From: Candidatus Woesearchaeota archaeon
GTDB taxonomy: Archaea; Nanobdellota; Nanobdellia; Woesearchaeales; WAPJ01
Reading direction: 5' to 3'
NCBI GenBank assembly: GCA_047602885.1
Contig: JBLKOQ010000001.1
Coordinates: 10,016 to 74,015, forward strand
DNA: 64,000 nt
The notes under the pieces were generated by a model. The model saw nothing but the letters and a program-made list of their open reading frames with translations. It was not told the DNA's origin and did no database searches. The translations under genes were made by a program, and so were the position numbers. Of the stretch, positions 2,145 through 50,057 are shown in pieces (position 1 is the stretch's first letter; every line of letters begins with the position of its first letter).

Positions 2145-2171
2145 TGTTAATATTATTAGGATGATGCAATA

Positions 2172-3960: not shown

Positions 3961-3961
3961 T

Positions 3962-8287: not shown

Positions 8288-8288
8288 A

Positions 8289-9143: not shown

Positions 9144-9152
9144 GATGATACT

Positions 9153-32321: not shown

Positions 32322-32903
32322 CTATCTTATCATCTCATAGAAATATTCCGTTCCGTGCAATATAATATTATTATTAATCGCTTCTGAGCCCACAGTAAAT
32401 TCTTTAGACATACTCATAGACTTGAATTCTGTTTCATTAAAAACGTTGATATGTAGAGGCAGTGGTATAGTGGATGATATGCTCATTATTTCTTTATTCA
32501 TAATTTCTTCTAGACCATCGGGTATGATGAACAATAGATCAATATCAGAATGTCTTGTTGGGTTTCTTTTAGCATAACTTCCAAAAAGCAACAATACGAA
32601 GAATACAGTACTCATATTATTATAATAGCTTAAAACTGCTCTTATCGTCTTATTTCTTAGGATATCTTCTCTTCTATTATGCTCTGCTTCAAATATGTAG
32701 GGGTGCGGTTTTTTTACTAGTGTGACTTTGTGGGCATTTCCAAAAGGCTCTAATACTACTATGTTATTGTTTGCTAATCTCATAATTATATTATGCATGT
32801 TCTTATAATCCTTTTTTAGTATCTTGGCCAGTCCTCTAATGCTCAATCTCAGGTTATTGTAGTCCAATAATGCCTGGATAACTTTTACATCTGCTTTTTG
32901 CAT
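32322..32903 (-). CDS. winged-HTH + minimal nucleotidyltransferase (MNT) protein, paralog 3 (no HEPN partner)
   Basis: LFGSYAKRNPTRHSDIDLLFII NTase motif. Confidence 0.6.
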   Translation of the reverse strand: MQKADVKVIQALLDYNNLRLSIRGLAKILKKDYKNMHNIIMRLANNNIVVLEPFGNAHKVTLVKKPHPYIFEAEHNRREDILRNKTIRAVLSYYNNMSTVFFVLLLFGSYAKRNPTRHSDIDLLFIIPDGLEEIMNKEIMSISSTIPLPLHINVFNETEFKSMSMSKEFTVGSEAINNNIILHGTEYFYEMIR

Positions 32904-35421: not shown

Positions 35422-38400
35422 TTGGGCTTGAAACAAGTTGTAGTGCAAGTAACGATAGTAGTAGTTATAATAGCTGCGCTTATATTCACATTCTTTAGTA
35501 TTGGAGAGCCTACAATTACAGGTTATGCTGTATTTGAGAGCAGTGTTAGTAATGTCAGTTATGACGTGGAAAGGGTAGTGTTGCCACAAGAAACTTATAC
35601 TATTCAGTTGGAAGATAATGTTGTTGTAAGAGGAATAGTAATTAATGGTTATTATATTGCAAGCAAAGATTCTAGTATTATTGCAAGGCTTGATGAAGGG
35701 ACTATTAGTCATGAATTGAGGTTGAGAAGCAATGTTATTACTGGCATGGCTATCGGTGCTGGAGAAGTTGAGAGTGGTATGATAGAAGAAGACTTGGCTA
35801 ATAGGACTTTGTTGAGGTATGGTGATGGTCCTTATGATATCGATAATGATGGAATGGTAGGGAGACAAGGAGCAGTAGACTATTATGTTGAAACTAATGC
35901 TTCTTGTGTATTATGGAGTATTGTAGGGGATGATGTTGACCTATTCTGTCAGGGAACAATAGAATGCTGTGACAGTTATCTATTGGAGAGCATGGATGAC
36001 AATCCCAATTATTTAGTGTTGGATAGGCAAAGAGCAGGTGCTGACAGAGGAGAAGTATTGGCCAAAGCTGACGGTTATGATTTTAGTAGAATGTTGCCTT
36101 ATGATTTTACTGGTGCTGAGGAGAGACTGGTAAGATTGGATGATGTTTGTTTGGGAAGTTGTAATGTTAGGATGCAGAGCAGTAGTATAAGGATAGAGAG
36201 CAGTGCTTATTTGCATATAGACAGGATTATAGTATATTATGATGATTTGCCAGACGATGAGATATTTGATACAGAGGATGGCAACATAATAGAAGAAGTA
36301 TTACCAGAAAAAAGAGTCATAAGAGAAGAGATGATAGAATATATAGTGTATGAGTCAGAAGGAGGTATTATTGGAAGAACCGTCTCAGAACTAAAAAGTC
36401 ATTATGGTCTTAGCAGGGCATCTGAACGTTCAGCAAAGATATTTTCAATGGATTATGAGCATATCAGTGAAGAGGAAGAAACAGAGTATACCGAAGGGAT
36501 TAATGCTCATATAATTAGAGTATCATCAGAGCTTCTAAATCTAGTAACAGAAGAAAGCGTAAGAATCATAATATTAAATGAATCAGGAATATACTCAGAA
36601 TACGCCAATAATTTATCAGAGCTAAACGAAATACTACACTCTAAAGAAGTTATAACAGCTAGTATCGACAGACAAATAGAATTGTTAACACAAGATACTC
36701 TTAATGCATCAGGGTTTATATCAGTATATAATGAGTATGAGGTTTCTGGTTCTGGTGTTCGTGTATGTATTGTAGATACGGGTGTATCGGGTCATGTGGT
36801 TGAGAATATATCATATACTGGTGTCAATGTTCTTGATGGTACCGATGACATAATGGATTACCATGGCCATGGTACTCTTGTTTCGTACCCTTTGATTCGT
36901 GCATTACCTGATGCCCATTATGTGATTGTAAAGGCTTTGGATGATACTGGGATAGGATATGAGTCTGATGTTATTTCTGGATTGGATGCGTGTGCTGAAC
37001 ATGATGTTGATGTTGTTTCTCTTTCTATAGGAGCTGGATTGTATGATGGGTACTGTGATACTAACCTTGTATCAGAGCGTGTGAATGAACTTGTGTCTGA
37101 AGGAGTCTTGGTAGTTTCTGCTGCAGGTAATGAGGCTGGTCCTTATTTGAAGGCTCCTTCATGCGCTTCCTCTGCTCTTGCAGTTATTGCTTACACTGAT
37201 GATTCGTTATGGTATCAGTCTTCATACTTGGAAGGTCATGCAGTATTTGCCGCTCCTGGTGTTGTTGAGACTATTGGTCCTGATGGTTCTGTGGTTTTAT
37301 CTTCTGGTACGTCTATGAGTGTTCCTTTTGTTAGTGCAGCTGCTGGTTTATTGGTTGAGTATACTAATGACACGGGACTAGTGTTACGTAACAGACTGGT
37401 TGGCACAGGTGATCTGCTTGGTGATGAGTTCTTGTTTTCTCGTCTGAATGTTTCGAGGGCTTTTTCGGGTGAGATTACGAATGAGTTGTTGTATAATATT
37501 AGCGAGGGCGTTGAGGTAGAGGGGACTGTATATTATCGTGGTACGAGTTTTATTGCAGGAACTATCACCACAGGAAATGGGCATTCGTGTGGTATTCGTG
37601 CTGTTGATGGTCGTGTTTTGTGCTGGGGTAGGAATAACGTGGGTCAAATTGGCGATGGTACAACTGCAGGTCCTCGTACGAATCCTACTTTAACTACTGA
37701 TACTTCTGCATATACTTTTATTTCATCAGGCGAACAACATTCGTGTGGTATTCGTGCTAATGATTCTCGTGTTTTGTGCTGGGGTAGTAACGGGAATGGT
37801 GTGCTTGGTGATGGTACTACTGTTCAGCGTGAAAATCCTACTTTGATTAATGATTCTTCAGCGTATCTTACACTTGGGTTAGGTCAAGGTCATTCGTGTG
37901 GTATTCGTGCTAATGATTCTCGTGTTTTGTGCTGGGGTTGGAATGGGAATGGTCGACTTGGTGACGGTACGGATGAAGCTCGTTGGAATCCTACATTGAC
38001 TTCTGATACTTCTGCATACAGCGGAATAACTGCAGGTGCCCACTACTCGTGTGGTATTCGTGCTAATGATTCTCGTGTTTTGTGCTGGGGCACTAATAAT
38101 TATGGTCAGCTTGGTGATGGTACAGATGTTGTTCGTTGGAATCCTACATTGACTTCTGATACTTCCGCTTACCTACATGTTTCTGGAGGAGGTTGGCATT
38201 CGTGTGGTATTCGTGCTAGTGATTCTCGTGTTTTGTGCTGGGGTAGGAATAACGTGGGTCAGATTGGCGATGGTACTACCACCACTCCTCGATTGAATCC
38301 CACTTTAACTACTAACACGTCTGCGCATGGTACTGTTTCTGCTGGAAACGATTATTCGTGTGGTATTCGTGTCAATGATTCTCGTGTTTTGTGCTGGGGT

Positions 38401-41400
38401 GCTAATGATTATGGTCGGCTTGGTGATGGTACTACTACAGGTCCTCGTACAAATCCCACTTTGACTGCAGACTCTTCTGCATATGTAGCCGTTTCAGCGG
38501 GGGATTGGCACACTTGTGGTATAAGATCTTACGATGGTCGTGTGTTGTGTTGGGGGTATAACGAGTTCGGTCAGATTGGCGATGGTACCACTACGACTCC
38601 ACGTCAAAATCCAACGCTTACAAGCAACATGGCTCCATTCGCCGAAATTCCTTGGGTCTTTACAACATGCGAAGCAACTGGTCGCACTGGTCCTACTCAA
38701 GGTATGTGTGACGATGCATACGAATACTCTTATCTGAACAATAGTGTAACTGTATCTTCAGGCATACAATCATGGACTGTTCCTGAGACGGGATGGTATA
38801 ATGTTACTGCAGTTGGAGCTCAAGGAGGATACGGTGGGAGAACGGGTGTTGGGGGATACGGCGCTCTCATTTCAGGTGCTTTCTACTTCGAAGAGGGAGA
38901 GACAATCAATGTTCTCGTTGGTCAGAAAGGTGGAGATAACTCGTTTCGACCGGCAGGTGGTGGTGGAAGTGCAGTGTGGAAGGATACTGGAACCGAACTC
39001 CTCATCGTCGCTGGAGGTGGAGGAGCGTATGCAGTTGGAACAACGACCACCTACCAGGACCGAGCACACGCGAGCAACACAACAAGTGGGAAGGATGGAT
39101 TTGGTGCCACGGCTCAGAGCGTGGGTGGAACCGGAGGTCTTGGAGGTGCCGGAACAGGTAACCGAGCCTCTGGTGGTGGAGGATGGTTTACTGATGGTGG
39201 ACAGGGCACGACGGCTGACAGTCGTGGCCGATCCCTCTCAGGAGGGGGTCTTGGAGGTGGTGGTGCTGTAGCTGACGGTGGATTTGGTGGTGGCGGAGCG
39301 ACCGATAGCACGACGACATGGGGTGCTGCTTCTGGTGGTGGTGGGTACTCTGGTGGTGGGGGTGGGTATTCTAACACAAACGATGCTGAAGGAGCTGGGG
39401 GCGGTGGAGGATCATACAATTCTGGGTTGTTCCAGTATAACGTCGGAGGAGAGAACGCTGATCATGGCTTGGTCATTATCGAGCCATACGGTGATGTCTC
39501 ATTACTCACCGTGGGAGTTACTCCTTCTCCCGAAGCGAACGCTACCGATGATCTTCTTGGATATTGTACGAGTGATGTCATCGATGGATTCGACCGGATC
39601 GACTATGAGTGGAGACGTGACGGCATAGTCGAGTACATGGGAACGTACTTTAGAGCAGATACGATCACAGCGCATGAAGCTCACACTTGTGGTATTCGTG
39701 CTAATGATTCTCGTGTGTTATGTTGGGGACGCGCGGGTAGTGGTGAGATTGGGAATGGAAGCAAGCTACCACAAGTGCTTAATCCAACACTCACCTCTGA
39801 TACTGATCCTTACCTTCAAGTGAGCGTCGGATTCACTCATTCGTGTGGTATCCGCTATGACGGAAGAGTGCTCTGCTGGGGAAACAACGCTGAAGGGCAG
39901 TTGGGAACAAACGATACGACTGAACGACTCGTTCCTACTTTGATTGCGGATGATGCTGCCTACCATTCCCTCAGCGCAGGATACCGGATGAATTGTGCGA
40001 TACGTGCTAATGATTCTCGTGTGTTATGTTGGGGTGACAATGTATTCTCTCAACTCGGCAGTGGAGGTGGATCGGTGAGCGTTCCGAGGCTCATCAATGA
40101 TACCGCTTCCTACCTGATGGTTTCCACTTACAAGTACCACGCGTGTGGTATTCGTGCTAATGATTCTCGTGTGTTGTGCTGGGGGATGAACTGGTACGGT
40201 CAGGGTGGTAATGGAACAACTGACGAGTTCGTGTCATCCGAGACTCCGACCCTCACGACCGATAGTTCACCATATGTAATGGTAACAACAGGTGCCTCTC
40301 ATACGTGTGGTATTCGTGCTAGTGATTCTCGCGTGTTGTGCTGGGGTCGTAATAATAATGGGCAGCTTGGAATCGGTTCGAGCGGTACAAATGTCGGTAA
40401 CCCCACAACGACTTCAGATTCATCTGCATATCACTACATAGATGCTGGTTGGCAGTTCTCATGTGGCATCAGATCGTCTGATAATAGAGGTCTTTGTTGG
40501 GGGGATAATGGTGAGGATAAACTTGGTATCGGAACGACCGGTAATCGTGAAAACCCTACACTTATATCTGCTTCGTTTGCGATATCGTTGATTACTGCTG
40601 GTGAACGCCATGGGTGTGTGGTTCGCTCTTCGAATGGGCGTGTGTACTGCTGGGGACAAACTGCTGAAGGACGTACAGGAGATGGGGTAGGTATTGGTAC
40701 TGAGCACACACCGACGCTCACAACAGACACTTCCTCGTATGCGTACTTACCTGCTATTGCCTCTGGCGTGCAGTATAACCTCTCAACACTTGACTCAACG
40801 ATAACGAATGGTGGAGACTCATGGACGTTCTCATGCCGGATTACAGACGGTCGAACGACCTATCCATACGAGGAGAGTGCTACGATAACGATTGCAAACA
40901 TTATTCCGATTTATTCAAAGTTTGATGGTTCAACAACGAACTTTTCTGATGCTAGTGTTGTTCCTGACCTTTCAAGCGTGAGCAATCCGATTCTTGAGAT
41001 ATCCACGTTCGGACGCATCACATGGAAAGGTATGGTAAACGTTCCTAGTTCAGATTATGATTCTCATGTGCATATTGGTTATCGGTACATTTTTGTTAAT
41101 AGTAGCGCGTTGCATTCATCTCATGATTCGGGTTCGAATTTGAGCTTTTATGATACGGGCTTCGTGCATGCTCCTGTCATCCTCAAAGATAGTTCTGTGT
41201 GTGAACAACCCTTGTGTAACATGACTGGATTTGTTGATGGTTACGTGAATTACTCAGTGGCTGGTTTCTCAAACTACACGCTTGATTCTAATAGTCGATT
41301 GGAGATCTGGGATGGTACTGATCCTCAAGGAGGAAATAATTCGTATGAGGTTGGTGAATCGGTGCCTTTCTATGCAAATTATTCGAATCTGACTTCTGGT

Positions 41401-44400
41401 GAACCGATTTCGGGTTCGGGGAACGATTGTGAGATCCAATTTGATACTGGGAGCGGGTATGGGAGTTTTATAGAGATGGAATTTAACGCAACAAGTAACT
41501 TGTACGAGTACAACACCACATTTGGATCTGCAGGGACGTTCAGTTATAACGTGAGTTGCACTAGCACCCAAGGATATGAGAACCTGAGCGTGACTAATGA
41601 GTTCACATACAATCCTGCAAACTGTTTTGACAATTCGACGAGTCCTATACCAATTTGTACATGTACTGATCTTAGCAGGATGTGGGAGAACCTTACAGCA
41701 AACTATGAATTGCAGAATAATATAGACTGTAGTGATACTATTAATTGGAATGATGATGAGGGATGGCTGCCTGTAGGGACAACAGGTACGGGTTTTAGTG
41801 GTACGCTGGATGGGCAGGGATATAATATTACTGACTTGTTCATTGCTCGAAATAATGTTGGTTATCAAGGTTTGTTTGGTCAGTTAACTACAGGAGGAAG
41901 CATTACTGATTTAGGTTTGGTGAATGCGAATATCACCATAAAAGACACACTCAGTATAGTGACTCCATATATTGGGATTCTTGTAGGATATATCGATGGA
42001 GGCAGTGTCTCTGGATCTTATGTCACAAATAGTATTCTCTATAGTGATTTTCCCTCTACTGGTGGTCTTATAGGAGAAATGAGTGGTGGTAGTGTTGTCT
42101 CATCTTCTTTTGTTAGTGGTTCTAGTGTTTCTTCTTCTACTAGTAATGTTGGTGGTCTTATAGGAAGAATGAGTGGTGGTAGTGTGTCATCTTCTTATAC
42201 GGTGGATTCTAGTGTTTCTTCTACTGGTAGTAGTGTTGGTGGTCTTGTAGGATATATGCTGAGTGGTAGTGTTGTTTCATCGTCTTATACTATTGGTTCT
42301 AATGTTTCTTCTACTAGTACTCGGGTTGGTGGTCTCGTAGGAAGAATGTGGAGTGGTTCTAGTATTGTTGATTCTTACAGTACTAGTAATGTTTATGCTC
42401 TTGCAGGAGAAAACTTACAATATCATGGTGGACTAGTAGGACAAAACTATAGGGGAGTGATAAACAATTCTTATAGTACAGGAATAGTTAATAGTACACA
42501 TGATGATAGTGGTGGTTTTGTAGGAAGCGTAGATACAGGAGCTGCGACTTATGGTATGTATGGTAACTTCTGGGATAACCAGACAAGCGGTCGTAGTACT
42601 AGTGCTGGTGATAATGTAACAGGACTTACTACAGCGCAGATGTATAATATCAGTCAGTTCTTAGCGGCAGATTGGAATATTAGTGAGATTAGCGGTTATA
42701 ATAATGAGACTTGGTTTATTGATGATGGTAATGATTATCCTAGATTATGGTTTGAGTTTGATCTTGCTTTATTGGATATTGAGTCTGTAGGCATTATTCC
42801 AAGTCCTTTTGCTTTGGATGATGAGAATCTCGTAGGGTATTGTAGTGCTACTGGTAGTGAGAATTTTACGAGGTTGGATTATTTGTGGTATAAGGATGAT
42901 GTAGTGGAGTATGGGGGTGCTTATTTCAAGGAAGGAAGTATTAGTGCTGGTGGGGAGTTTTCTTGTGGTGTTCGTGCTAATGATTCTCGTTTGTTGTGTT
43001 GGGGTGCTAATTTTGTTGGTAAGTTGGGTATTGGTAATACTACTCATATGTATAGTCCTGTTTTGGTTGATTCTTCTGATGCTTTTTTGAGTGTTTCTGT
43101 GGGTGTTTCTCATTCTTGTGGTGTTCGTGCTAATGATTCTCGTGTTTTGTGTTGGGGGCTAAATAGTGAGGGGCAGTTGGGTATTGGTAATACTACTGAT
43201 ATGTTTAGTCCTGTTTTGGTTGATTCTTCTGATGCTTTTTTGAGTGTTTCTTTAGGTAGTTTTCATTCTTGTGGTGTTCGTGCTAATGATTCTCGTGTTT
43301 TGTGCTGGGGTGGTAATATTTATGGTCAGTTGGGTGTTGGTAATACTACTGATATGTTTAGTCCTGTTTTGGTTGATTCTTCTGATGCTTTTTTGAGTGT
43401 TTCTTTAGGTAGTTTTCATTCTTGTGGTGTTCGTGCTAATGATTCTCGTGTTTTGTGTTGGGGTGGTAATTGGGTTGGTCAGTTGGGTGTTGGTAGCGCT
43501 GTTTATGATTCGTGTTTTGATGGTTATGAATATTACGATTGTAGTTTGAATCCTGTTTTGGTTGATTCTTCTGATGCTTTTTTGAGTGTTATGGTGGGTG
43601 TTTCTCATTCTTGTGGTGTTAGGGCGAGTGATTCTCGTTTGTTGTGTTGGGGTGCTAATGCTAATGGTCAGTTGGGTGTTGGTAATACTACTGATATGTT
43701 TAGTCCTGTTTTGGTTGATTCTTCTGATGCTTTTTTGAGTGTTGGTCTTGGTTTTGGACATTCTTGTGGTGTTAGGGCGAGTGATTCTCGTGTTTTGTGT
43801 TGGGGACGTAATTTTGGAGGTCAGTTGGGTGTTGGTAATACTACTAGTCCTATTATGGTTCCTGTTTTGGTTGATTCTTCTGATGCTTTTTTGAGTGTTG
43901 ATGGTGGTTTTGGTGGTGGTTTTGGTGAGCAGCATACGTGTGGTGTTCGTGCTGTTGATGGTCGTGTTTTGTGTTGGGGTGATGGTTCTTTTGGTGCTTT
44001 GGGAACAGGCAATACTAGTTCTCAGTTGAGTCCGACTCTTACTATTGATTCGAGCAGTTATCTTAGGGGGCTTTCTCCGCAGACGACTTATAATGTTTCT
44101 TTGATAGGGAGTGGGTTGACTAGTTTGGGGGAGGAGTGGAAGCTTAGTTGTCGCGCTGTAAATGTTACTAGTGCGGGGGATTTTGTTAATTCTACTGTTA
44201 CTACGATTGATGAGGGTGAAGAGGGTTTGGATTGTGGTGTTATCGATGAGCCTGGAGAGTATATTATGAATGGCGACCTTGCGGCTACCGGAACTTGTAT
44301 TACTATTAATGTTAGTGATGTTTCATTAGATTGTCAGGGTCATACGATCAACTACTCTACAAACGATGACGAGGGCTACGGTATCCTGATATGGAGCCAG

Positions 44401-47400
44401 AGCGGGACGGTCGAAAACGTGAGTATCGCGAACTGTAACATCATCAAAGAGAGTCCTGGAGGGAGCTCAGGGAGTAGGCGCCCAGCTATCCTCGGATACG
44501 GCTACTCAGGTACTCCTTCAGGAGGTTTCACAAAATCAGGTGATGAGCATACTGTTGAGCAAGTAAATATATCGAACGTTACTATCACGACCGAGGGAGA
44601 TTATGCTCGAGGCATATTTGTCTTAAGTGGTCATACTTGGAGTGTCGAAGATGTCTCTATCACAACGTATGGAGATGATGCCCGAGGAATCTACAGCGAG
44701 AACTCTGATCATTGGAGTCTCAGGAGAGTTGATATCACGACCTTTGGAACTGTAGGGATAGGACTGTATACGATCGATGCAAACCACTACTATCTCAAGG
44801 ACATCGATATCACTGCTGCGAGCGCAGGCATGTGGATCCGCACGGGAAGTTCGAACTGGCGGGCAGAGAACATTTCGATAAATGCTACGCTTCAAGGTAT
44901 CGCGACATCGGACGGAGGTATGGCTCACATGAGTTTTTACAACTCTACGATCCACTCATCAGGAAGCCGGGGATTAGATACCAATCAAGGTACAGATAAC
45001 ATCAGCTTCTACGATTCTATTATCACCGCTCCATCAAGTGACGATGTATACATGCGTCTTGGTGATGCGAGTCGGCGTGTTACGTTCGTCAACGTGACTT
45101 TCAACCCTTCCAGTGTCACGTTCCATGACTCGACCTCAGGATTCCTCGACGTTGGATGGTACGTCGACTTTCTCGTAAACGATACTCTAAGTTATCGAGT
45201 TGAGAATGCTAATATTAGTTGGCAGGATTCTGGTGTTATGAGCAGTTTGAACCCTAACAGTACTGGTTGGAAATTAACTGATAGTGGTGGATTGTCTCTA
45301 AGAAATATATTGTATGAGTACTCGCAGAACCAAACTGCTAGGTACTATCATACTAACTATAGCTTCGACATAAGTAGCCCATCATACGCTTCCCTTGTTG
45401 GAGCGTCTAGGAACTTCACTACAAATACACAATTGGATTTTACTATAGAGCCATTGTCGTTGGAGTGTGGTGTTATTAGCGAGCCTGGCTCTTATGTTAT
45501 GACTACTAATCTTACTGCTACAGGCACGTGTTTCACTATTAATGTTAGTGATGTAATACTGGATTGTCAGGATTATACTATTAATTATTCGACTGCTGAT
45601 GAGGGTTATGGTATTTTGATTTGGAGTCAGTCTTCTAATGTGGATAATGTTACGATACAGAACTGTGTTGTTGTGCAGGGTTCTGGTGAGGGTGATGTGA
45701 ATAGTGCGCGTCCTGGTATTTTGGGTTGGGGTGTTAATAATGGTCCGAGTGGTGGTTTGTCGAGTGTTAGTGGTATTTTTTATGAGGTTACTAATGTTTT
45801 GGTTGTGGATTCTAGTATAGTAACATTGGGTGATCGTTCGGATGCTATTAGGGGTGCGGTTTCGTATGACTGGGATGTTGTGGGTGTGAATGTTTCTACT
45901 GCTGGTCAGCTTGCTTCGGGTGTTTTTGGTACTTTTACGGGGGGTTGGTTGTTGTCTGGTGTTGATTCTTTTACTACCGGTGATAATTCTAGGGGTTTTG
46001 CTAGTTGGGATTCTGTTGATTGGGAGATTGTGGATTCTCGTTCTGAGGTTACTACTTTTTATTCTTATCCTATTCGTGCTGAGGAGGGTTCTCATGGATG
46101 GGTTCTGTCCAATGTTTCTCTTATCTCTGATGGTTTTGAGTCTGATGGGCTTCATGTGATTGATTCGGATAATTGGATGGTTGAGGGTCTTTTTGTTTCA
46201 TCATCGGGCACTCAGGCTGATGCTTTTTATTTAGAGGATTCTGATGGTTGGATGGTTTATGATTCTGATTTGTCTAGTGGGTCTGCGTTTGATGTTGTTC
46301 TTAATCTTAGTGATTCTTCGTATCGTGTTGGTTTTGTGAATACGAGTTTTGATCATTCTAGCGTGTCTCTTCTTACTCCGGGCTGGCTTGATAGGGGTTG
46401 GTGGGTGGATGCGTATGTGAATGATAGTCTTGGCAGTCCTGTAGAGGATGCTAATGTCTCTTGGAATGATGCTGGTATTATTAGTGGGAATCCTAGTAGT
46501 AGTGGTTGGAATGTTACTGATGATAGTGGACTTAGTGTTAGGAATGTCTTGTTTGAATATTCTGAGAATCAAACTGCGAGATATTATAATACTAATTATA
46601 CTATTAATGTTAGTCATGAGGATTATGATGATCTTATAGGAGAGTCAAGGAATTTTACGGGTAATACGCAGTTGAACTTTACTTTTTTGGGTGAGTCTTT
46701 AGAGTGCGGTGTTATTAGTGAGCCTGGCGAGTATGTTATGACTTCTGACTTGTCTGCTGCTGGTACTTGTTTTACTATTAATGTTTCTGATGTTAGTTTG
46801 GATTGTGGGGGTCATACGATTAACTATAGTACTGGTGAGGAGGGTTATGGTATTTTGATTTGGAGCCAGGGTGGGTTGGTTGAGAATGTGAATGTTAGTA
46901 ATTGTAATATTGTTAAGGATAGTGAGGAAGGTAATAGTTCGAGTCTTAGGCCTGCCTTACTTGTTTATGGTCGTAGTGCTGTTCCTAGTGGTTCTATTAG
47001 TGGTATTGCGGGTACTGCTCATTATGTAGATAATGTGTCTATTAATAATGTTAATGCTAGTAGTAAGGGAAATTATAGTAGTGGGATTTTTATAGTGCGA
47101 GGATGGTATTCTTCTATTAGTAATGTTATGGTTGATACTGATGGTAATTGGAGTTTTGGGATATGGGGCGATTACTCTTCTTATTGGAATATTTATAATA
47201 CTAGTATTTTTTCGTTAGGGCTGTTTAATGTTGGTCTGTATGGGGTGGATTCTAATTTTTGGGTTTTAGATAGTTTAAATGTAGATGTTGAGTTCAATGA
47301 TGGTCATGGTATTATTGGTTTTCGGTCAAATTCTTGGATTCTTTATAATGTTACTGTTATTGCTGACGGTTCTACAGTTAGGGGAATATCTCTATGGGAT

Positions 47401-48882
47401 CTTAATAACTGGACTGTTATAGACTCTTTTATTGATAGTACTTTTTATGATATTAATATGGAGTTAGATCATAGTACTCGTCAAGCTTTTTTTATTAATA
47501 CAAGCTTTAATAAGAGTAGTGTGTATTTTACTAATGCTAATGCTGGTTGGCTTAATCGTGGTTGGTGGGTTGATTCGTATGTTAATGATACTATAGGGAA
47601 TCCAATTAGTGGTGCTAATGTGAGTTGGGTGGATAATGGTAGTCTTGCAAGCAATCCTTCTGCTAGTGGTTATAGTTTGACTTTGGTTGATGGGACGGTG
47701 AGGAATGCCATATTCGAATATTCTCAGAACCAGACTCATACGTTTGAGCATAATAATTATACTTTTAATGCGAGCAAGGAAGGATTCTTACATAGTGATA
47801 TTGTTCAAAATATAACTGATAATGCCTTCATTTACTTTACATTAGAAACCGATGACATTGATCCTCCGACATGGTCTGATCCTTGGGATAACAGTACTGA
47901 TACTAGCCCTAGGATTAATGAGAATATAAGGATGAACTTAACACTAAACGATGATGTTGACTTGTTCAGCTATACTTTTAGTTGGAATGGTACTGGTTCA
48001 TGGACTAATGATAGTATACAGTTAATATCAGGCACAGAGCATATTTTAAGCGTTATTAAGCAAGTAGGATTGCCTAGAGACAATACTATAGGATGGAGAG
48101 TATACTTTAATGACAGTGCAGAAAAGACAAACATCTCTGATATATTCACATTCACTGTAAAGAACACTCCTCCTGATGTTCCTATACTAAATTATCCTCT
48201 AAACGACAGTGATATTTACAATAGAACGCCATTATTCAACTGGACGGGATTCGATGCAGACTCTGATGAATTAACATACAACCTCACGATATACTGCATA
48301 GGAGGATGCAGTGCTGACAACAGGCATTATCAAGGAATAACAACTAACGAATTCCAGCTTGAAGAAGAACTCCAGTTCCTATACGATGACGGATACTCAT
48401 ACTTGTGGAGCGTTAATGCATGCGACCAATATGAATGCTCAGAATACTCCCAAAACAACACGTTCACTCTCTCAAGCCTCTTATCAGTCAGATTCACACA
48501 AAACGATTCGGACTTCGGCATGATGCAGCTCGGACAAACCAATAGTACTGAGGATAACAGCCCAAACCCTCTTGTACTGGTAAACGAAGGAAACGTAAAA
48601 GTAAATATTAGCTTCTACGCCCAAACCCCGTTATTTGAAAGAGCTGCACTGCCAAGCCCATTCTTTGAGGCAAGAATAAGGCCATTAATAGGAAATTATG
48701 GCATAGACACTAATACGAGCTGGTTTGACCTGGACGATTCAGAAAACCCTGCTCACATGCTAAGAAAACTAAATTATACAACAGACAATAATGCCACTAT
48801 AGACTTAAGAGTAACAGTTCCTATAGACGAGCCTCCAGCAGAGAGGAGCAGTACTATTACAGCAATGGTGGTGATGTCATGA
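35422..48882 (+). CDS. giant secreted multidomain surface protein (4486 aa): signal anchor, S8 subtilase, RCC1 block 1, ALK-like glycine-rich domain, RCC1 block 2, GLUG repeats, RCC1 block 3, three tandem beta-helix modules, fn3-like C-terminus
   Basis: Uninterrupted 13.46-kb ORF; apparent TTG start (in-frame stop just upstream). Catalytic triad motifs IVDTG / HGHGT / GTSMSVPFVSAAAG. More than 20 copies of an HSCG(I/V)RANDSRVLCWG...G.LG.G motif. Three about 410-aa modules each starting L(D/E)CGVI(D/S)EPG.Y(I/V)M. Confidence 0.85.
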   Translation: MGLKQVVVQVTIVVVIIAALIFTFFSIGEPTITGYAVFESSVSNVSYDVERVVLPQETYTIQLEDNVVVRGIVINGYYIASKDSSIIARLDEGTISHELRLRSNVITGMAIGAGEVESGMIEEDLANRTLLRYGDGPYDIDNDGMVGRQGAVDYYVETNASCVLWSIVGDDVDLFCQGTIECCDSYLLESMDDNPNYLVLDRQRAGADRGEVLAKADGYDFSRMLPYDFTGAEERLVRLDDVCLGSCNVRMQSSSIRIESSAYLHIDRIIVYYDDLPDDEIFDTEDGNIIEEVLPEKRVIREEMIEYIVYESEGGIIGRTVSELKSHYGLSRASERSAKIFSMDYEHISEEEETEYTEGINAHIIRVSSELLNLVTEESVRIIILNESGIYSEYANNLSELNEILHSKEVITASIDRQIELLTQDTLNASGFISVYNEYEVSGSGVRVCIVDTGVSGHVVENISYTGVNVLDGTDDIMDYHGHGTLVSYPLIRALPDAHYVIVKALDDTGIGYESDVISGLDACAEHDVDVVSLSIGAGLYDGYCDTNLVSERVNELVSEGVLVVSAAGNEAGPYLKAPSCASSALAVIAYTDDSLWYQSSYLEGHAVFAAPGVVETIGPDGSVVLSSGTSMSVPFVSAAAGLLVEYTNDTGLVLRNRLVGTGDLLGDEFLFSRLNVSRAFSGEITNELLYNISEGVEVEGTVYYRGTSFIAGTITTGNGHSCGIRAVDGRVLCWGRNNVGQIGDGTTAGPRTNPTLTTDTSAYTFISSGEQHSCGIRANDSRVLCWGSNGNGVLGDGTTVQRENPTLINDSSAYLTLGLGQGHSCGIRANDSRVLCWGWNGNGRLGDGTDEARWNPTLTSDTSAYSGITAGAHYSCGIRANDSRVLCWGTNNYGQLGDGTDVVRWNPTLTSDTSAYLHVSGGGWHSCGIRASDSRVLCWGRNNVGQIGDGTTTTPRLNPTLTTNTSAHGTVSAGNDYSCGIRVNDSRVLCWGANDYGRLGDGTTTGPRTNPTLTADSSAYVAVSAGDWHTCGIRSYDGRVLCWGYNEFGQIGDGTTTTPRQNPTLTSNMAPFAEIPWVFTTCEATGRTGPTQGMCDDAYEYSYLNNSVTVSSGIQSWTVPETGWYNVTAVGAQGGYGGRTGVGGYGALISGAFYFEEGETINVLVGQKGGDNSFRPAGGGGSAVWKDTGTELLIVAGGGGAYAVGTTTTYQDRAHASNTTSGKDGFGATAQSVGGTGGLGGAGTGNRASGGGGWFTDGGQGTTADSRGRSLSGGGLGGGGAVADGGFGGGGATDSTTTWGAASGGGGYSGGGGGYSNTNDAEGAGGGGGSYNSGLFQYNVGGENADHGLVIIEPYGDVSLLTVGVTPSPEANATDDLLGYCTSDVIDGFDRIDYEWRRDGIVEYMGTYFRADTITAHEAHTCGIRANDSRVLCWGRAGSGEIGNGSKLPQVLNPTLTSDTDPYLQVSVGFTHSCGIRYDGRVLCWGNNAEGQLGTNDTTERLVPTLIADDAAYHSLSAGYRMNCAIRANDSRVLCWGDNVFSQLGSGGGSVSVPRLINDTASYLMVSTYKYHACGIRANDSRVLCWGMNWYGQGGNGTTDEFVSSETPTLTTDSSPYVMVTTGASHTCGIRASDSRVLCWGRNNNGQLGIGSSGTNVGNPTTTSDSSAYHYIDAGWQFSCGIRSSDNRGLCWGDNGEDKLGIGTTGNRENPTLISASFAISLITAGERHGCVVRSSNGRVYCWGQTAEGRTGDGVGIGTEHTPTLTTDTSSYAYLPAIASGVQYNLSTLDSTITNGGDSWTFSCRITDGRTTYPYEESATITIANIIPIYSKFDGSTTNFSDASVVPDLSSVSNPILEISTFGRITWKGMVNVPSSDYDSHVHIGYRYIFVNSSALHSSHDSGSNLSFYDTGFVHAPVILKDSSVCEQPLCNMTGFVDGYVNYSVAGFSNYTLDSNSRLEIWDGTDPQGGNNSYEVGESVPFYANYSNLTSGEPISGSGNDCEIQFDTGSGYGSFIEMEFNATSNLYEYNTTFGSAGTFSYNVSCTSTQGYENLSVTNEFTYNPANCFDNSTSPIPICTCTDLSRMWENLTANYELQNNIDCSDTINWNDDEGWLPVGTTGTGFSGTLDGQGYNITDLFIARNNVGYQGLFGQLTTGGSITDLGLVNANITIKDTLSIVTPYIGILVGYIDGGSVSGSYVTNSILYSDFPSTGGLIGEMSGGSVVSSSFVSGSSVSSSTSNVGGLIGRMSGGSVSSSYTVDSSVSSTGSSVGGLVGYMLSGSVVSSSYTIGSNVSSTSTRVGGLVGRMWSGSSIVDSYSTSNVYALAGENLQYHGGLVGQNYRGVINNSYSTGIVNSTHDDSGGFVGSVDTGAATYGMYGNFWDNQTSGRSTSAGDNVTGLTTAQMYNISQFLAADWNISEISGYNNETWFIDDGNDYPRLWFEFDLALLDIESVGIIPSPFALDDENLVGYCSATGSENFTRLDYLWYKDDVVEYGGAYFKEGSISAGGEFSCGVRANDSRLLCWGANFVGKLGIGNTTHMYSPVLVDSSDAFLSVSVGVSHSCGVRANDSRVLCWGLNSEGQLGIGNTTDMFSPVLVDSSDAFLSVSLGSFHSCGVRANDSRVLCWGGNIYGQLGVGNTTDMFSPVLVDSSDAFLSVSLGSFHSCGVRANDSRVLCWGGNWVGQLGVGSAVYDSCFDGYEYYDCSLNPVLVDSSDAFLSVMVGVSHSCGVRASDSRLLCWGANANGQLGVGNTTDMFSPVLVDSSDAFLSVGLGFGHSCGVRASDSRVLCWGRNFGGQLGVGNTTSPIMVPVLVDSSDAFLSVDGGFGGGFGEQHTCGVRAVDGRVLCWGDGSFGALGTGNTSSQLSPTLTIDSSSYLRGLSPQTTYNVSLIGSGLTSLGEEWKLSCRAVNVTSAGDFVNSTVTTIDEGEEGLDCGVIDEPGEYIMNGDLAATGTCITINVSDVSLDCQGHTINYSTNDDEGYGILIWSQSGTVENVSIANCNIIKESPGGSSGSRRPAILGYGYSGTPSGGFTKSGDEHTVEQVNISNVTITTEGDYARGIFVLSGHTWSVEDVSITTYGDDARGIYSENSDHWSLRRVDITTFGTVGIGLYTIDANHYYLKDIDITAASAGMWIRTGSSNWRAENISINATLQGIATSDGGMAHMSFYNSTIHSSGSRGLDTNQGTDNISFYDSIITAPSSDDVYMRLGDASRRVTFVNVTFNPSSVTFHDSTSGFLDVGWYVDFLVNDTLSYRVENANISWQDSGVMSSLNPNSTGWKLTDSGGLSLRNILYEYSQNQTARYYHTNYSFDISSPSYASLVGASRNFTTNTQLDFTIEPLSLECGVISEPGSYVMTTNLTATGTCFTINVSDVILDCQDYTINYSTADEGYGILIWSQSSNVDNVTIQNCVVVQGSGEGDVNSARPGILGWGVNNGPSGGLSSVSGIFYEVTNVLVVDSSIVTLGDRSDAIRGAVSYDWDVVGVNVSTAGQLASGVFGTFTGGWLLSGVDSFTTGDNSRGFASWDSVDWEIVDSRSEVTTFYSYPIRAEEGSHGWVLSNVSLISDGFESDGLHVIDSDNWMVEGLFVSSSGTQADAFYLEDSDGWMVYDSDLSSGSAFDVVLNLSDSSYRVGFVNTSFDHSSVSLLTPGWLDRGWWVDAYVNDSLGSPVEDANVSWNDAGIISGNPSSSGWNVTDDSGLSVRNVLFEYSENQTARYYNTNYTINVSHEDYDDLIGESRNFTGNTQLNFTFLGESLECGVISEPGEYVMTSDLSAAGTCFTINVSDVSLDCGGHTINYSTGEEGYGILIWSQGGLVENVNVSNCNIVKDSEEGNSSSLRPALLVYGRSAVPSGSISGIAGTAHYVDNVSINNVNASSKGNYSSGIFIVRGWYSSISNVMVDTDGNWSFGIWGDYSSYWNIYNTSIFSLGLFNVGLYGVDSNFWVLDSLNVDVEFNDGHGIIGFRSNSWILYNVTVIADGSTVRGISLWDLNNWTVIDSFIDSTFYDINMELDHSTRQAFFINTSFNKSSVYFTNANAGWLNRGWWVDSYVNDTIGNPISGANVSWVDNGSLASNPSASGYSLTLVDGTVRNAIFEYSQNQTHTFEHNNYTFNASKEGFLHSDIVQNITDNAFIYFTLETDDIDPPTWSDPWDNSTDTSPRINENIRMNLTLNDDVDLFSYTFSWNGTGSWTNDSIQLISGTEHILSVIKQVGLPRDNTIGWRVYFNDSAEKTNISDIFTFTVKNTPPDVPILNYPLNDSDIYNRTPLFNWTGFDADSDELTYNLTIYCIGGCSADNRHYQGITTNEFQLEEELQFLYDDGYSYLWSVNACDQYECSEYSQNNTFTLSSLLSVRFTQNDSDFGMMQLGQTNSTEDNSPNPLVLVNEGNVKVNISFYAQTPLFERAALPSPFFEARIRPLIGNYGIDTNTSWFDLDDSENPAHMLRKLNYTTDNNATIDLRVTVPIDEPPAERSSTITAMVVMS
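36700..37450 (+). other. subtilisin-like S8 peptidase domain within the giant protein
   Basis: Asp near 36775 (CIVDTG), His at 36868-36870 (HGHGT), Ser at 37312-37314 (GTSMS). Confidence 0.7.
37560..38620 (+). repeat. RCC1 block 1: seven tandem about 150-156-bp repeats (CATTCGTGTGGTATTCGTGCTAATGATTCTCGTGTTTTGTGCTGGGGT core), CGT/GGT/GTT codon regime
   Basis: Core recurs at 37582, 37738, 37891, 38041, 38206, 38352, 38509. Confidence 0.75.
38740..39500 (+). other. glycine-rich domain resembling the ALK/LTK-type glycine-rich domain (Pfam Gly_rich-like): VLVGQKGG ... LLIVAGGGGAY plus poly-Gly tracts
   Basis: Motifs INVLVGQKGGD, GGGGSAVW, LLIVAGGGGAYA, multiple GGGG(Y/S); GC-richer codon regime. 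Confidence 0.45.
39530..40740 (+). other. RCC1 block 2 (about 8 repeats) preceded by a linker homologous to the one before block 3; GC-richer codon regime
   Basis: Repeats HTCGIRANDSRVLCWG ...; linker VTPSPEANATDDLLGYCTSD ... parallels IIPSPFALDDENLVGYCSAT ... at 42790. Confidence 0.6.
41790..42750 (+). other. GLUG-motif repeat region (GGL(I/V)G(R/E/Y)M(S/L/W)GGSV ... x6)
   Basis: Repeated VGGLIGRMSGGSVSSS-type units about 25 aa long; opening GTLDGQGYNITDLF is typical of GLUG domains. Confidence 0.5.
42950..44010 (+). repeat. RCC1 block 3: seven tandem about 153-180-bp repeats; units at 43216-43371 and 43372-43527 are nearly identical
   Basis: CATTCTTGTGGTGTTCGTGC core at 42958, 43111, 43264, 43426, 43606, 43759, 43934; GATTCTTCTGATGCTTTTTTGAGTGTT recurs 6 times. 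Confidence 0.75.
44200..47830 (+). other. three tandem about 1.2-kb homologous modules (A 44200-45430, B 45430-46690, C 46690-47830) with right-handed beta-helix (pectate-lyase-like) character
   Basis: Each begins L(D/E)CGVI(D/S)EPG(E/S)Y(I/V)M ... TINVSDV(S/I)LDC(Q/G)(G/D)(H/Y)TINYST ... EGYGILIWSQ and ends ... ARYY(H/N)TNY. Module A is in the GC-richer regime, B and C in the GT-rich regime. Confidence 0.55.
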
Positions 48883-50057
48883 AAAAAGCACTGCTATTGC
48901 TGATAATACTATTAACTGCAATCATGATAATAGAAGAATCAGTAGCATTCGGAGTGAGTCCAGGCAGAAAACAGTATGACTACCAGCCACAACTAGACGG
49001 TTACATAAACATCATAAACAGCCATAAGGAATCAGGAGAACTCATAATAGTCGCTAGAGGAGAATTATCAGAATACGTAATATTCAGCGAAAGGACAATA
49101 AAACTGGATCCCAACGTCCACGAAAATAGGGTTCATTATACTGTAAGAGTGCCCCAAGACAAGTTAGAGCCAGGCTCCAACGAAATAGATGTTTATATAA
49201 TGCCGATGACATTCGATACAGACCAGTCCACAGTATCAGCGCAGGCAGGAATAATCTTTAGAATAATAGTAAACCTTCCTTACGACGGGGCTCATGCTAC
49301 AGGAAGAATAGACTATAACAGCAGAACTAACACCATAATAATACCCGTAACAAATGTAGGAACACAAAGAATAGAAGATGCAAGAGCATCAGTAAGCATT
49401 ATAGGGCCTACAGGAGATATCATATCATCAAAATCGTCATCATCCAAAACCATAGGAATAAGAGAAACCATAGAATACAACATACCTTTAGATGGCATTA
49501 GCAACGGGCATTATCTTGCAAGAGCAACCATAGAATATGACAATAAAATACTAGTAATAGAAAGGAATATAGCGGTGGGAACAGCATTAATAGCAGTGCA
49601 ATCGATAGAAATGCCTGAATTCAGGTATGGTCATATAAATAGGATAGACATTAACGTAAAGAGCGAGTGGAACCAAGTAATAGAGGACGCTTATGCCATG
49701 ATAGAAATAATAGGACCTGCAGGAACACTAATAGAAAGGATAAAAACACCAGGAGAAAGAATAGAGCCTTACAGGACAAGCATACTAAGAGGATACTGGG
49801 ACACTGCAGGAATAACTCCAGGAGACCACCAGATAATAGCCACAGCAGTAGGAGAAGGAGGAAATGATACCAAAAGAACCATGGTTACCATAACCCCTAC
49901 AGGAATAGTAATGCAACAGCCTACAGGAAGAGTCGCAGGAGAAGGGGGGATGGGAATACTAGGAGTAGCACTCGCATTCCTGATAATAGCAAACATTATA
50001 CTGTTTGCGATAATACTATCAGGAAGAAACAAAAACAAAAAGAATAAAAAGCAGTAA
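48879..50057 (+). CDS. secreted protein with C-terminal TM anchor and basic tail, translationally coupled to the giant gene
   Basis: ATGA overlap with the giant ORF stop; N-terminal signal; C-terminal GMGILGVALAFLIIANIILFAIILSGRNKNKKNKKQ. Confidence 0.55.
   Translation: MKKALLLLIILLTAIMIIEESVAFGVSPGRKQYDYQPQLDGYINIINSHKESGELIIVARGELSEYVIFSERTIKLDPNVHENRVHYTVRVPQDKLEPGSNEIDVYIMPMTFDTDQSTVSAQAGIIFRIIVNLPYDGAHATGRIDYNSRTNTIIIPVTNVGTQRIEDARASVSIIGPTGDIISSKSSSSKTIGIRETIEYNIPLDGISNGHYLARATIEYDNKILVIERNIAVGTALIAVQSIEMPEFRYGHINRIDINVKSEWNQVIEDAYAMIEIIGPAGTLIERIKTPGERIEPYRTSILRGYWDTAGITPGDHQIIATAVGEGGNDTKRTMVTITPTGIVMQQPTGRVAGEGGMGILGVALAFLIIANIILFAIILSGRNKNKKNKKQ

What the first reader, a model, noticed from the sequence alone, without database searches (positions are those of the whole stretch)
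43075..43540. Near-identical tandem DNA repeats inside RCC1 block 3, plus a 30-nt core repeated more than 20 times across 6.5 kb
Units 43216-43371 and 43372-43527 are almost base-for-base identical for about 120 bp. GATTCTTCTGATGCTTTTTTGAGTGTT recurs six times. The core GTGCTAATGATTCTCGTGT(T/G)TT(G/A)TG(C/T)TGGGG occurs in all three RCC1 blocks (37560-38620, 39675-40700, 42950-44010). These give substrates for slipped-strand or recombinational expansion and contraction, and hence repeat-number variation of the propeller. They are also an assembly hazard.
Basis: seen in the sequence. Interest (0 to 1): 0.55.

Follow-up and report, generated by a model that had tools for sequence, protein, structure and literature searches.

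The report
Near-identical RCC1 propeller blades, archaeal giant gene
The repeated DNA encodes the blades of three seven-bladed RCC1-type propellers in a 4,486-residue surface protein of a Woesearchaeota archaeon; the blades are alike because they exchange sequence and because this stretch uses almost only G/T-ending codons, and no change in blade number was seen.

Summary
The repeats are real. The 27-mer occurs exactly 6 times. The longest exact duplicate is 121 nt (43184-43304 = 43337-43457). The period is 153 nt, not 156. The 31-nt core matches 9 times exactly and 14 times with up to 3 mismatches, not more than 20.

They encode 21 blades, as three seven-bladed RCC1-like propellers, in one 4,486-aa ORF (35422-48882). 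The ORF also carries an S8 protease domain, a GLUG motif and three ~410-aa tandem repeats. The source is a Candidatus Woesearchaeota MAG.

Two things explain the DNA identity:
- Blades are homogenised within each propeller. Each block has its own synonymous codons, and identity tracts are mosaic (permutation P<0.0002).
- Codon use is extremely restricted. Third positions in block 3 are 96% G/T. This recurs in the RCC1 blades of two other genomes, one of them a syntenic relative whose neighbouring genes are saturated at synonymous sites.

All six complete, contig-assembled propellers of this family have seven blades. Recombination is therefore supported, but copy-number variation is not. The assembly hazard is plausible.

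This is a new member of a known kind, the highly repetitive beta-propellers. The segmental G/T-only codon use is unexplained and is the most interesting part.

The parts
35422..48882 (+). Giant ORF of 4,486 aa with a TTG start and an N-terminal hydrophobic anchor. It equals NCBI MFT4308908.1 (locus tag ACMXYL_00265), Candidatus Woesearchaeota MAG.
36748..37374 (+). Peptidase_S8 (subtilase) domain
   Evidence: PF00082, E 1.3e-20, aa 443-651
37582..38661 (+). RCC1-like propeller B1, seven blades. Third positions are 77% G/T. Block-specific codons: Ser TCG, Cys TGC, Leu CTT.
39682..40761 (+). RCC1-like propeller B2, seven blades. This is the most diverged block (mean blade identity 47% aa, third positions 62% G/T). 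Block-specific codon: Val GTG.
42958..44085 (+). RCC1-like propeller B3, seven blades. Blades 1-6 are 80-93% identical in DNA and blade 7 is about 56% identical to them. Third positions are 96% G/T.
43184..43304 (+). First copy of the 121-nt exact duplicate (end of blade 2 plus start of blade 3)
43337..43457 (+). Second copy of the 121-nt exact duplicate (end of blade 3 plus start of blade 4)
43322..43401 (+). 80-nt exact tract shared with 43664-43743 (blade 3 with blade 5). It shows that the identity is mosaic.
43495..43551 (+). Loop replacement in blade 4: SAVYDSCFDGYEYYDCSLN in place of NTTDMFS (net +12 aa, two extra Cys). The model confidence is lower here.
42800..44240 (+). Segment of extreme codon restriction (third positions 93-99% G/T). 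It covers the B3 cassette and its flanking modules.
45500..47600 (+). Second segment of extreme codon restriction (third positions 86-96% G/T). It covers the ~410-aa tandem repeats R2 and R3, which are only 43% identical in protein.
42060..42377 (+). 90-nt tandem repeats in the region upstream of the GLUG-motif match (Pfam match at 42427-42492)
44227..47937 (+). Three tandem repeats of about 1.24 kb (R1-R3), 43-47% identical in protein. Pfam finds no family in them here. They align with the L002 protein P0243, which carries Pfam Beta_helix.

Best explanation
The repeated DNA is the coding sequence of beta-propeller blades. One 4,486-aa, membrane-anchored surface protein of a Woesearchaeota (DPANN) archaeon holds three RCC1-like propellers of exactly seven 51-residue blades each.

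Two layers produce the DNA near-identity.

1. Homogenisation within each propeller. Blades are kept alike by intragenic recombination, either short-tract gene conversion between blades or re-amplification from one blade. The closing blade is much less affected. This layer is shown.

2. Codon restriction. Block 3 lies in a segment where third codon positions are almost only T or G. Each amino acid therefore has in effect one codon, and protein identity becomes DNA identity. This regime is maintained independently in related genomes. The pattern is shown; its cause is unknown.

The differences between blades fall mainly in the loop after CWG (x-N-x-x-G) and the S-x-G-x-x turn. By beta-meander topology these lie on one face of the propeller. 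That face is inferred to be a binding surface whose loops are reshuffled by conversion, while the fold fixes the number of blades at seven. The host-adhesion role of the whole protein is also an inference, drawn from its domain content.
For: - Pfam finds RCC1, RCC1_2 and WD40_RLD far above their cut-offs.
- There are 21 CWG anchors in three groups of seven, spaced 50-54 residues apart except where two block-3 blades carry loop insertions (58 and 63).
- The AlphaFold model of B3 has pLDDT 90.2 and pTM 0.88, with seven four-stranded blades.
- Foldseek's best matches are UVR8, RCC1 and HERC2 RLD, TM 0.79-0.87 for UVR8.
- Codon states differ by block: B1 has Ser TCG x6, Cys TGC x6 and Leu CTT x4; B2 has Val GTG x6; B3 has TCT, TGT, TTG and GTT.
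- Identity is mosaic: exact tracts of 121, 80 and 65 nt. The run of 27 concordant polymorphic sites between units 2 and 3 gives P<0.0002.
- Codon restriction in B3: third positions T 0.77, A 0.02, C 0.01; four-fold sites 90% T.
- In B3, two codons for the same amino acid are identical 74% of the time at non-homologous columns and 93% at homologous columns. In B2 the figures are 33% and 40%.
- Against the syntenic locus L002, pS is 0.205 for B3 but 0.73-0.77 for the neighbours M17 and TraB. Overall DNA identity is ordinary, 73% against 68-74%.
- The same third-position bias occurs in L002 (0.95-0.98) and L003 (0.94-0.95).
- The variable columns coincide in B1, B3, L002 and L003.
- All six complete propellers on contigs have seven blades.
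- Highly repetitive propellers, including an RCC1/BLIP-II group, are described in PMC9218822.
Against: - No reads or second strain were available, so neither conversion events nor constancy of copy number in the population were observed directly.
- Gene conversion and independent re-amplification from one blade cannot be fully separated. PMC9218822 reads block-specific nucleotides as re-amplification.
- With synonymous sites constrained, dN/dS (about 1 or higher) cannot be read as positive selection.
- The placement of the variable loops on one face comes from strand topology, not from model coordinates.
- The function is unverified.
- Codon restriction is absent from two other relatives with the same protein motif: L004 and L005 have 57-66% G/T at third positions. 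It is therefore not a property of the family as a whole.
Confidence: 0.7

Rival explanations
1. Contingency locus. Recombination or slippage between near-identical 153-nt units often adds or removes blades. This would give size or phase variants of the propeller in the population.
For: - An exact 121-nt duplicate and six identical 27-mers are adequate homology for deletion or duplication, and the unit is in frame.
- Fungal WD40 repeats with high internal conservation do show length polymorphism (PMC11761791).
- Protein-level assemblies from run SRR3989339 show 3-6 blades per block.
Against: - All six complete propellers on nucleotide contigs have exactly seven blades.
- B3 models as a closed seven-bladed fold.
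- The variable-count proteins carry the source label 'SRC' and come from a single run. I take 'SRC' to be a protein-level read assembly (my own knowledge, not shown by a tool). Such assemblies are chimera-prone in repeats.
- Slipped-strand mispairing acts on short units, not on units of 153 nt.
Confidence: 0.1
2. Codon bias alone.
For: - The same-codon baseline at non-homologous columns is already 0.74 in B3 and 0.70 in L002.
- B3 against L002 has pS 0.205 although the neighbouring genes are saturated.
Against: - Same-codon identity at homologous columns (0.93) exceeds the baseline (0.74).
- The 121-nt exact tract includes non-preferred codons (TTA) and hypervariable residues (S-L-G-S-F) shared only by those two units. 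At 0.74 per codon, about 40 identical codons have a chance of roughly 1e-5.
- B1 and B2 carry block-wide codons that break the T-ending rule (TCG, TGC, GTG).
- L005 has blades up to 99% identical in DNA with ordinary codon use.
Confidence: 0.1
3. Assembly artefact. The near-identity or the blade order in block 3 comes from collapse or chimeric joining of short reads.
For: - The 121-nt exact repeat exceeds common assembly k-mer sizes.
- A related contig breaks inside its array.
Against: - The reading frame stays open for 13.5 kb.
- B3 has seven blades like B1, B2 and its relatives, and folds with high confidence.
- Units 2 and 3 differ by 10 clustered substitutions, so they are not collapsed copies.
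Confidence: 0.05
4. Targeted hypermutation, by a diversity-generating retroelement or similar, creates the variable loops.
For: The sequence is poor in A with localised variable positions. DGRs are common in DPANN archaea (my own knowledge).
Against: - No reverse transcriptase is found in the 64-kb window, by motif scan or by Pfam on the 51 ORFs scanned, which include 49 of the 50 ORFs of at least 150 aa.
- The repeats are all in frame inside the gene, with no non-coding template copy.
- Known DGR targets have other folds (my own knowledge).
Confidence: 0.02

Closest known systems
Highly repetitive beta-propellers amplified from single blades (Pereira & Lupas 2022, PMC9218822; the WRAP domain of Nostoc Npun_R6612 is the extreme case)
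   Same: - The fold is closed and blades have high mutual identity.
- Some nucleotide positions are shared by all blades of one propeller but differ in sister propellers.
- The strand that closes the ring is excluded from the homogenised region.
- RCC1/BLIP-II is their third largest group.
   Different: [quoted passage not shown] This case is archaeal (DPANN) and sits three times in one giant protein.
- The blades here are not freshly amplified: synonymous differences exist (pS 0.05-0.2).
- Much of the DNA identity comes from codon restriction, which I did not find discussed in the passages of that paper that I read.
WD40 repeats with high internal conservation in fungal NLRs (Podospora het-d, het-e; PMC11761791)
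   Same: - Propeller repeats are 80-100% identical and kept so by concerted evolution.
- A few hypervariable positions lie in otherwise identical repeats.
- Short-read assemblies are unreliable.
   Different: - In the fungal genes the repeat number is polymorphic and decides function. Here the count is seven in every complete case.
- This gene has no NACHT/STAND architecture.
- The fold family differs (RCC1, not WD40).
- This protein is extracellular, not an intracellular receptor.
RCC1 / UVR8 / HERC2-RLD seven-bladed propellers
   Same: Pfam repeats are present, and the predicted fold matches (TM 0.79-0.87 to UVR8).
   Different: - Eukaryotic RCC1 blades are far more diverged from one another (my own knowledge; not measured here).
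- Nothing here indicates Ran-GEF or photoreceptor function.
- The blades carry an invariant C-G-[IV]-R-x-N-D-S-R-V-L-C-W-G signature with two Cys.
SPEARE and other giant DPANN surface proteins (Hamm et al. 2019, PMC6642349)
   Same: A DPANN protein several thousand residues long, membrane-anchored and largely extracellular, with a serine-protease domain plus adhesion-type modules. A role in host contact is proposed.
   Different: - Pfam detected no restriction-endonuclease domain and no laminin-G domain.
- The anchor is N-terminal.
- RCC1 propellers are not listed among the SPEARE domains in the passages I read.

Membership tests
RCC1-like repeat propeller (Pfam PF00415, PF13540, PF25390) | RCC1 repeat profile matches above the curated cut-off | tested here: met
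   RCC1 397 bits (cut-off 21.7, 17 stretches); WD40_RLD 533 bits (cut-off 150)
RCC1-like repeat propeller (Pfam PF00415, PF13540, PF25390) | Closed seven-bladed propeller fold | tested here: met
   pLDDT 90.2, seven four-stranded blades, best match UVR8 4dnw at TM 0.79/0.87. This is a prediction, not a solved structure.
RCC1-like repeat propeller (Pfam PF00415, PF13540, PF25390) | Guanine-nucleotide exchange activity on Ran-type GTPases | not testable with these tools
   Biochemical property. It is unlikely for an extracellular archaeal protein (inference).
Highly repetitive beta-propellers (Pereira & Lupas 2022) | High identity between the blades of one propeller | tested here: met
   B3 blades 1-6 average 77% aa and 80-93% nt. 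B1 averages 67% and B2 47%. The paper's exact threshold was not checked.
Highly repetitive beta-propellers (Pereira & Lupas 2022) | Nucleotide states shared by the blades of one propeller and different in sister propellers | tested here: met
   TCG, TGC and CTT in B1; GTG in B2; TCT, TGT and TTG in B3
Highly repetitive beta-propellers (Pereira & Lupas 2022) | No synonymous differences between blades (very recent amplification, as in WRAP) | tested here: not met
   pS is 0.05-0.21 among B3 blades 1-6. Only the 121-nt tract is free of differences.
Propeller repeats with high internal conservation, fungal NLR type | Repeats at least 80% identical, with a few hypervariable positions | tested here: met
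   variable columns are the x positions in CWG-x-N-x-x-G, the end of the long loop, and S-x-G-x-x
Propeller repeats with high internal conservation, fungal NLR type | Repeat-number polymorphism between alleles | tested here: inconclusive
   No alleles of this gene were found. Across lineages the count is always seven.
Propeller repeats with high internal conservation, fungal NLR type | NLR architecture (NACHT/STAND NTPase upstream of the repeats) | tested here: not met
   only S8, RCC1 and GLUG were detected
Slipped-strand contingency locus | Short repeat unit whose copy number shifts the reading frame or promoter spacing | tested here: not met
   The unit is 153 nt, in frame and coding
Diversity-generating retroelement target | Nearby reverse transcriptase, plus a template repeat that differs from the variable repeat at adenines | tested here: not met
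   No RT in the window. The rest of the genome was not available.
SPEARE proteins | Serine protease plus adhesion domains plus a type III restriction-enzyme-like cytoplasmic domain | tested here: not met
   An S8 protease is present, but Pfam finds no restriction-enzyme or laminin-G domain

The most novel reading that the evidence does not exclude
The G/T-only third-position coding of the RCC1 cassettes may be an actively maintained, segment-specific regime.

What the data show:
- It has sharp borders inside one ORF.
- It also raises G/T at first and second codon positions.
- It runs against the local strand bias.
- It persists in three lineages, at least two of which are separated by saturated synonymous divergence in neighbouring genes.

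Two readings remain open:
- A localised strand-asymmetric mutation process on the non-template strand, for example exposure as R-loops or single-stranded DNA.
- Selection that keeps blades identical in DNA, so that short-tract gene conversion can keep reshuffling the binding loops. That would be an enzyme-free diversification system for a symbiont's host-contact protein.
Probability: 0.12. Interest if true: 0.75.

Novelty: new member of a known kind. Interest (0 to 1): 0.4.

Why it matters
DPANN archaea depend on host cells, and giant surface proteins are their main candidates for host contact.

This gene shows how such a protein can vary its presumed binding loops. Sequence is exchanged between blades while the seven-blade fold is kept.

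There is also a practical caution. In segments with one codon per amino acid, DNA identity and low dS do not mean recent duplication or transfer, and dN/dS is inflated.

The segmental G/T-only codon use is conserved across lineages and opposite to the local strand bias. It is a clean, testable anomaly in archaeal genome evolution.

Tried and rejected
- The whole-protein homologue search timed out. Shorter queries seemed to return only proteins up to about 1.75 times the query length. A 2,706-aa query was needed to find the source protein and the relative P0242.
- Exact look-ups of the window protein failed. In one search the translated TTG start reads as L, which may be why; P0241 itself is also not on record.
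- Exact DNA scans found little: the 27-mer in genome contigs gave 0, the core in metagenome contigs gave 0, a shorter core gave one contig, L003, and viral contigs gave 0.
- A protein-guided scan of genome contigs gave only a distant Saccharibacteria hit at 32% identity. No strain-level comparison of copy number was therefore possible.
- Recent horizontal transfer of the cassette between the window and L002 is rejected. DNA identity is 73%, like the neighbours, and pN exceeds pS.
- Recent duplication as the cause of the codon restriction is rejected. Repeats R2 and R3 share it at only 43% aa identity.
- Accuracy selection on conserved residues is rejected. The most conserved segment (C-terminus, 66% aa) has the lowest G/T at third positions.
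- Unstructured mRNA is rejected. Folding energy per 100 nt in B3 (-19 to -24) is in the range of neighbouring genes.
- Real antisense genes are rejected. The long minus-strand ORFs have no family match and follow from the composition.
- A DGR is rejected within this window.
- Literature searches for Woesearchaeota plus RCC1, and for segmental T-ending codon use, found nothing relevant.
Full report
**Observation**

The repeats exist and are far beyond chance.
- The 27-mer GATTCTTCTGATGCTTTTTTGAGTGTT occurs exactly six times, at 43069, 43222, 43375, 43564, 43717 and 43873. Dinucleotide-preserving shuffles give none.
- Tandem Repeats Finder reports a 153-nt period at 42960-43495 (3.5 copies, 91% matches) and at 43551-43907.
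- The longest exact direct repeat in the region is 121 nt, 43184-43304 = 43337-43457.
- The degenerate 31-nt core matches 9 times exactly and 14 times with up to three mismatches. The single most common form of the core matches 17 times within six mismatches. 'More than 20' holds only at protein level, where there are 21 blades.

**What it is**

The region lies in one open reading frame, 35422-48882 on the plus strand, of 4,486 codons.
- It is identical to NCBI protein MFT4308908.1 from a Candidatus Woesearchaeota MAG, on an 85-kb contig.
- A fused PriS-PriL primase at 62130-63734 fits a DPANN archaeon (the link is my own knowledge).
- Pfam finds RCC1, RCC1_2 and WD40_RLD far above threshold. 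On sub-segments it also finds an S8 subtilase and a GLUG motif.
- The CWG motif occurs 21 times, in three groups of seven. Spacing is 50-54 residues, except for 58 and 63 where two block-3 blades carry loop insertions. The groups are B1 37582-38661, B2 39682-40761 and B3 42958-44085.
- AlphaFold2 on B3, with a 52-sequence alignment, gives pLDDT 90.2 and pTM 0.88, with seven four-stranded blades.
- Foldseek's best PDB matches are UVR8 (TM 0.79/0.87), RCC1 and HERC2 RLDs.
This may explain why blade 7 is less homogenised (about 56% nt identity, against 80-93% among blades 1-6).

**Why the DNA is so alike, layer 1: homogenisation within each propeller**

- At conserved residues, each propeller has its own synonymous codon, shared by nearly all of its blades. 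B1 uses Ser TCG (6 blades), Cys TGC (6) and Leu CTT (4). B2 uses Val GTG (6). B3 uses TCT, TGT, TTG and GTT.
- These states include codons that break the T-ending preference. Neither protein selection nor codon bias explains them.
- Within B3, identity is mosaic. Units 2 and 3 share 121 nt exactly, and all ten of their differences sit in 27 nt of the loop after CWG. Unit 3 shares 80 nt exactly with unit 5.
- A GENECONV-style test permuted the order of polymorphic sites. Runs of 27, 16 and 11 concordant sites each gave P<0.0002, and the global P was <0.0002.
- This pattern is expected from short-tract gene conversion between blades. Re-amplification from single blades, as proposed by Pereira and Lupas (PMC9218822), cannot be fully excluded.

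**Why the DNA is so alike, layer 2: codon restriction**

- In B3, third codon positions are T 0.77, G 0.19, A 0.02 and C 0.01.
- Four-fold sites are 90% T. NNY codons end in T 97% of the time, and NNR codons end in G 94% of the time.
- Two codons for the same amino acid at non-homologous blade positions are therefore already identical 74% of the time in B3. The figures are 48% in B1 and 33% in B2. At homologous positions B3 reaches 93%.
- Most of the DNA identity therefore follows from protein identity. The excess over 74% is the signal of descent.

**Comparison with other genomes**

- A syntenic locus, L002, carries TraB and M17 peptidase, then an S8 plus Gly-rich protein, a 4,679-aa RCC1 protein, and a beta-helix protein.
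- L002 has one RCC1 propeller, again of seven blades. It has the same 26-nt core in every blade and third positions 95-96% G/T.
- Its neighbours are saturated at synonymous sites against the window: pS 0.73 for M17 and 0.77 for TraB. B3 against the L002 propeller has pS 0.205, below its pN of 0.283.
- Overall DNA identity is ordinary, 73% against 68-74% for the neighbours.
- The restriction is therefore not a trace of recent transfer. It is maintained separately in both lineages.
- A third genome, contig L003, shows 95% G/T in the RCC1 part and 68% in the rest of the same gene.
- Two further relatives with the same N-D-S-R-V-L-C-W-G protein motif use ordinary codons: L004 has 66% and L005 has 57%. 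The restriction is thus not intrinsic to the family.
- L005 has seven blades up to 99% identical in DNA with ordinary codons (same codon 0.87 at homologous columns, 0.51 at non-homologous ones). Homogenisation therefore recurs independently of the codon effect.

**Nature of the codon restriction (unexplained)**

- Along the gene, the proportion of G/T at third positions forms a mosaic with sharp borders:
  - 93-99% over 42800-44240;
  - 86-96% over 45500-47600;
  - about 50-60% over 38660-41900 and 44242-45400;
  - 30-43% in the last kilobase.
- L002 shows a similar mosaic.
- Ordinary plus-strand genes in the window have 29-45% and minus-strand genes 46-72%. The giant gene therefore runs against the local strand bias.
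- The second high-G/T segment covers repeats R2 and R3, which are only 43% identical in protein. The effect is therefore not a by-product of recent duplication.
- The segment best conserved between genomes (66% aa) has the lowest value.
- First and second codon positions are also shifted toward G/T, and V, F, G, L, C and W are enriched: 0.47 in B3 against 0.34-0.35 in B1 and B2. This suggests a pressure acting on all positions rather than on codon choice alone.
- Predicted mRNA folding energy is unremarkable.
- I favour a local strand-asymmetric mutational regime, but this is untested.

**Where blades differ**

- The variable columns are the same in B1, B3, L002 and L003. They are the x positions of CWG-x-N-x-x-G, the end of the long loop, and the S-x-G-x-x turn before HSCG.
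- In the model these are the strand 2-3 loop and the strand 4-1' turn. In a beta-meander, alternate loops lie on the same face (inference).
- The opposite loops (A-N-D-S-R and D-S-S-D-A-F) are invariant in B3.
- dN/dS among B3 blades is about 1 or higher. It is inflated by the constrained synonymous sites, so I make no claim of positive selection.

- Recombination between blades is supported.
- Expansion and contraction are not. Every complete propeller on a nucleotide contig has seven blades: B1, B2, B3, L002, L004 and L005.
- Proteins with 3-6 blades per block all come from one run, SRR3989339, under the source label 'SRC'. I take 'SRC' to be a protein-level read assembly (my own knowledge, not shown by a tool). 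Such assemblies are prone to chimeras in repeats.
- Those proteins, and the L003 contig that ends inside its array, illustrate the assembly hazard.
- For this window, three things argue against collapse: the 13.5-kb open frame, the seven-blade count, and the ten clustered differences between the two most similar units.
- No strain-level or read-level data could be obtained.

**Comparison with what is known**

- The closest described kind is the highly repetitive beta-propeller (PMC9218822). RCC1/BLIP-II forms about 10% of those cases and is reported as mostly bacterial. This is an archaeal example, present three times in one giant protein.
- Fungal NLR WD40 repeats with high internal conservation (PMC11761791) work similarly, through concerted evolution plus hypervariable sites. 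They differ in showing repeat-number polymorphism and in their architecture.
- The protein as a whole resembles giant DPANN surface proteins such as SPEARE (PMC6642349). It lacks SPEARE's defining restriction-enzyme domain.
- A DGR is excluded within the window.

**Verdict**

It is a new member of a known kind, and the copy-number hypothesis is unsupported. The conserved, segmental G/T-only codon use is the part that deserves follow-up.

Noticed in passing
window 42800-44240 and 45500-47600; L002 8935-11800, 24019-24700, 29059-30800; L003 RCC1 part: Some segments inside the giant genes have third codon positions that are 86-99% G/T, with sharp borders. The pattern is conserved across three genomes and is opposite to neighbouring same-strand genes. 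First and second positions and the amino-acid composition are shifted in the same direction. The cause is unknown.
   Followed up: partly
whole window: There is a clean strand asymmetry at third codon positions. Plus-strand genes have 29-45% G/T and minus-strand genes 46-72%. This is presumably replication-related, and the giant gene is the exception.
   Followed up: partly
window 42769-43113 (-), 43405-43935 (-), 45382-46155 (-), 46231-46617 (-): Long antisense ORFs overlap the high-G/T segments. They have no Pfam match and follow from the composition, because the antisense frame lacks T-starting codons.
   Followed up: yes
window aa 1354-1830 and 2451-3007 of the giant protein; L002 P0242 aa 160-731: Each propeller B2 and B3 sits between a conserved 'pre' module (…LVGYC…DY.W…) and a 'post' module (…W.[FL]SCR…). 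This forms a cassette of about 500 aa. The cassette lies after the GLUG region here but before it in L002, which indicates domain shuffling.
   Followed up: partly
window 43495-43551: Blade 4 of B3 carries a 19-aa loop with two extra cysteines in place of the usual 7 residues. Model confidence is lower there.
   Followed up: no
L005 3068-4999 (JGI 3300077566): A small 643-aa protein in another genome, probably archaeal. After a Cys-rich region it has seven RCC1 blades up to 99% identical in DNA, with ordinary codon use and an evident mosaic of loop variants.
   Followed up: partly
proteins P0001, P0008, P0019, P0048, P0049, P0053, P0057 (all from SRR3989339): Many conflicting versions of one RCC1 protein, with 3-6 blades per block and shuffled blade order, all from a single run. 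These are probably chimeras from protein-level assembly.
   Followed up: partly
window 6001-9932: A carotenoid-type cluster: amine-oxidase/phytoene-desaturase-like, phytoene/squalene synthase, UbiA prenyltransferase and carotenoid synthesis protein. This is unexpected in a reduced DPANN genome.
   Followed up: no
window 1-4813: A MoxR AAA ATPase, DUF58 and VWA gene set.
   Followed up: no
window 62130-63734: A single gene with both small-subunit and large-subunit primase domains (fused PriS-PriL).
   Followed up: no
window 61042-62074; also 15686-16324, 28522-29088, 32322-32903: There are several minimal nucleotidyltransferase genes. One is paired and overlapping with a HEPN gene, which looks like a toxin-antitoxin module.
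   Followed up: no
window 48879-50057: A 392-aa ORF whose start overlaps the stop of the giant gene by 4 nt. It has no Pfam match and is very A-rich at third positions (0.52).
   Followed up: no
window 11121-13202 and 17903-19744: Further putative surface proteins: a Beta_propel PF09826 protein and a DUF11/Ig-like protein.
   Followed up: no
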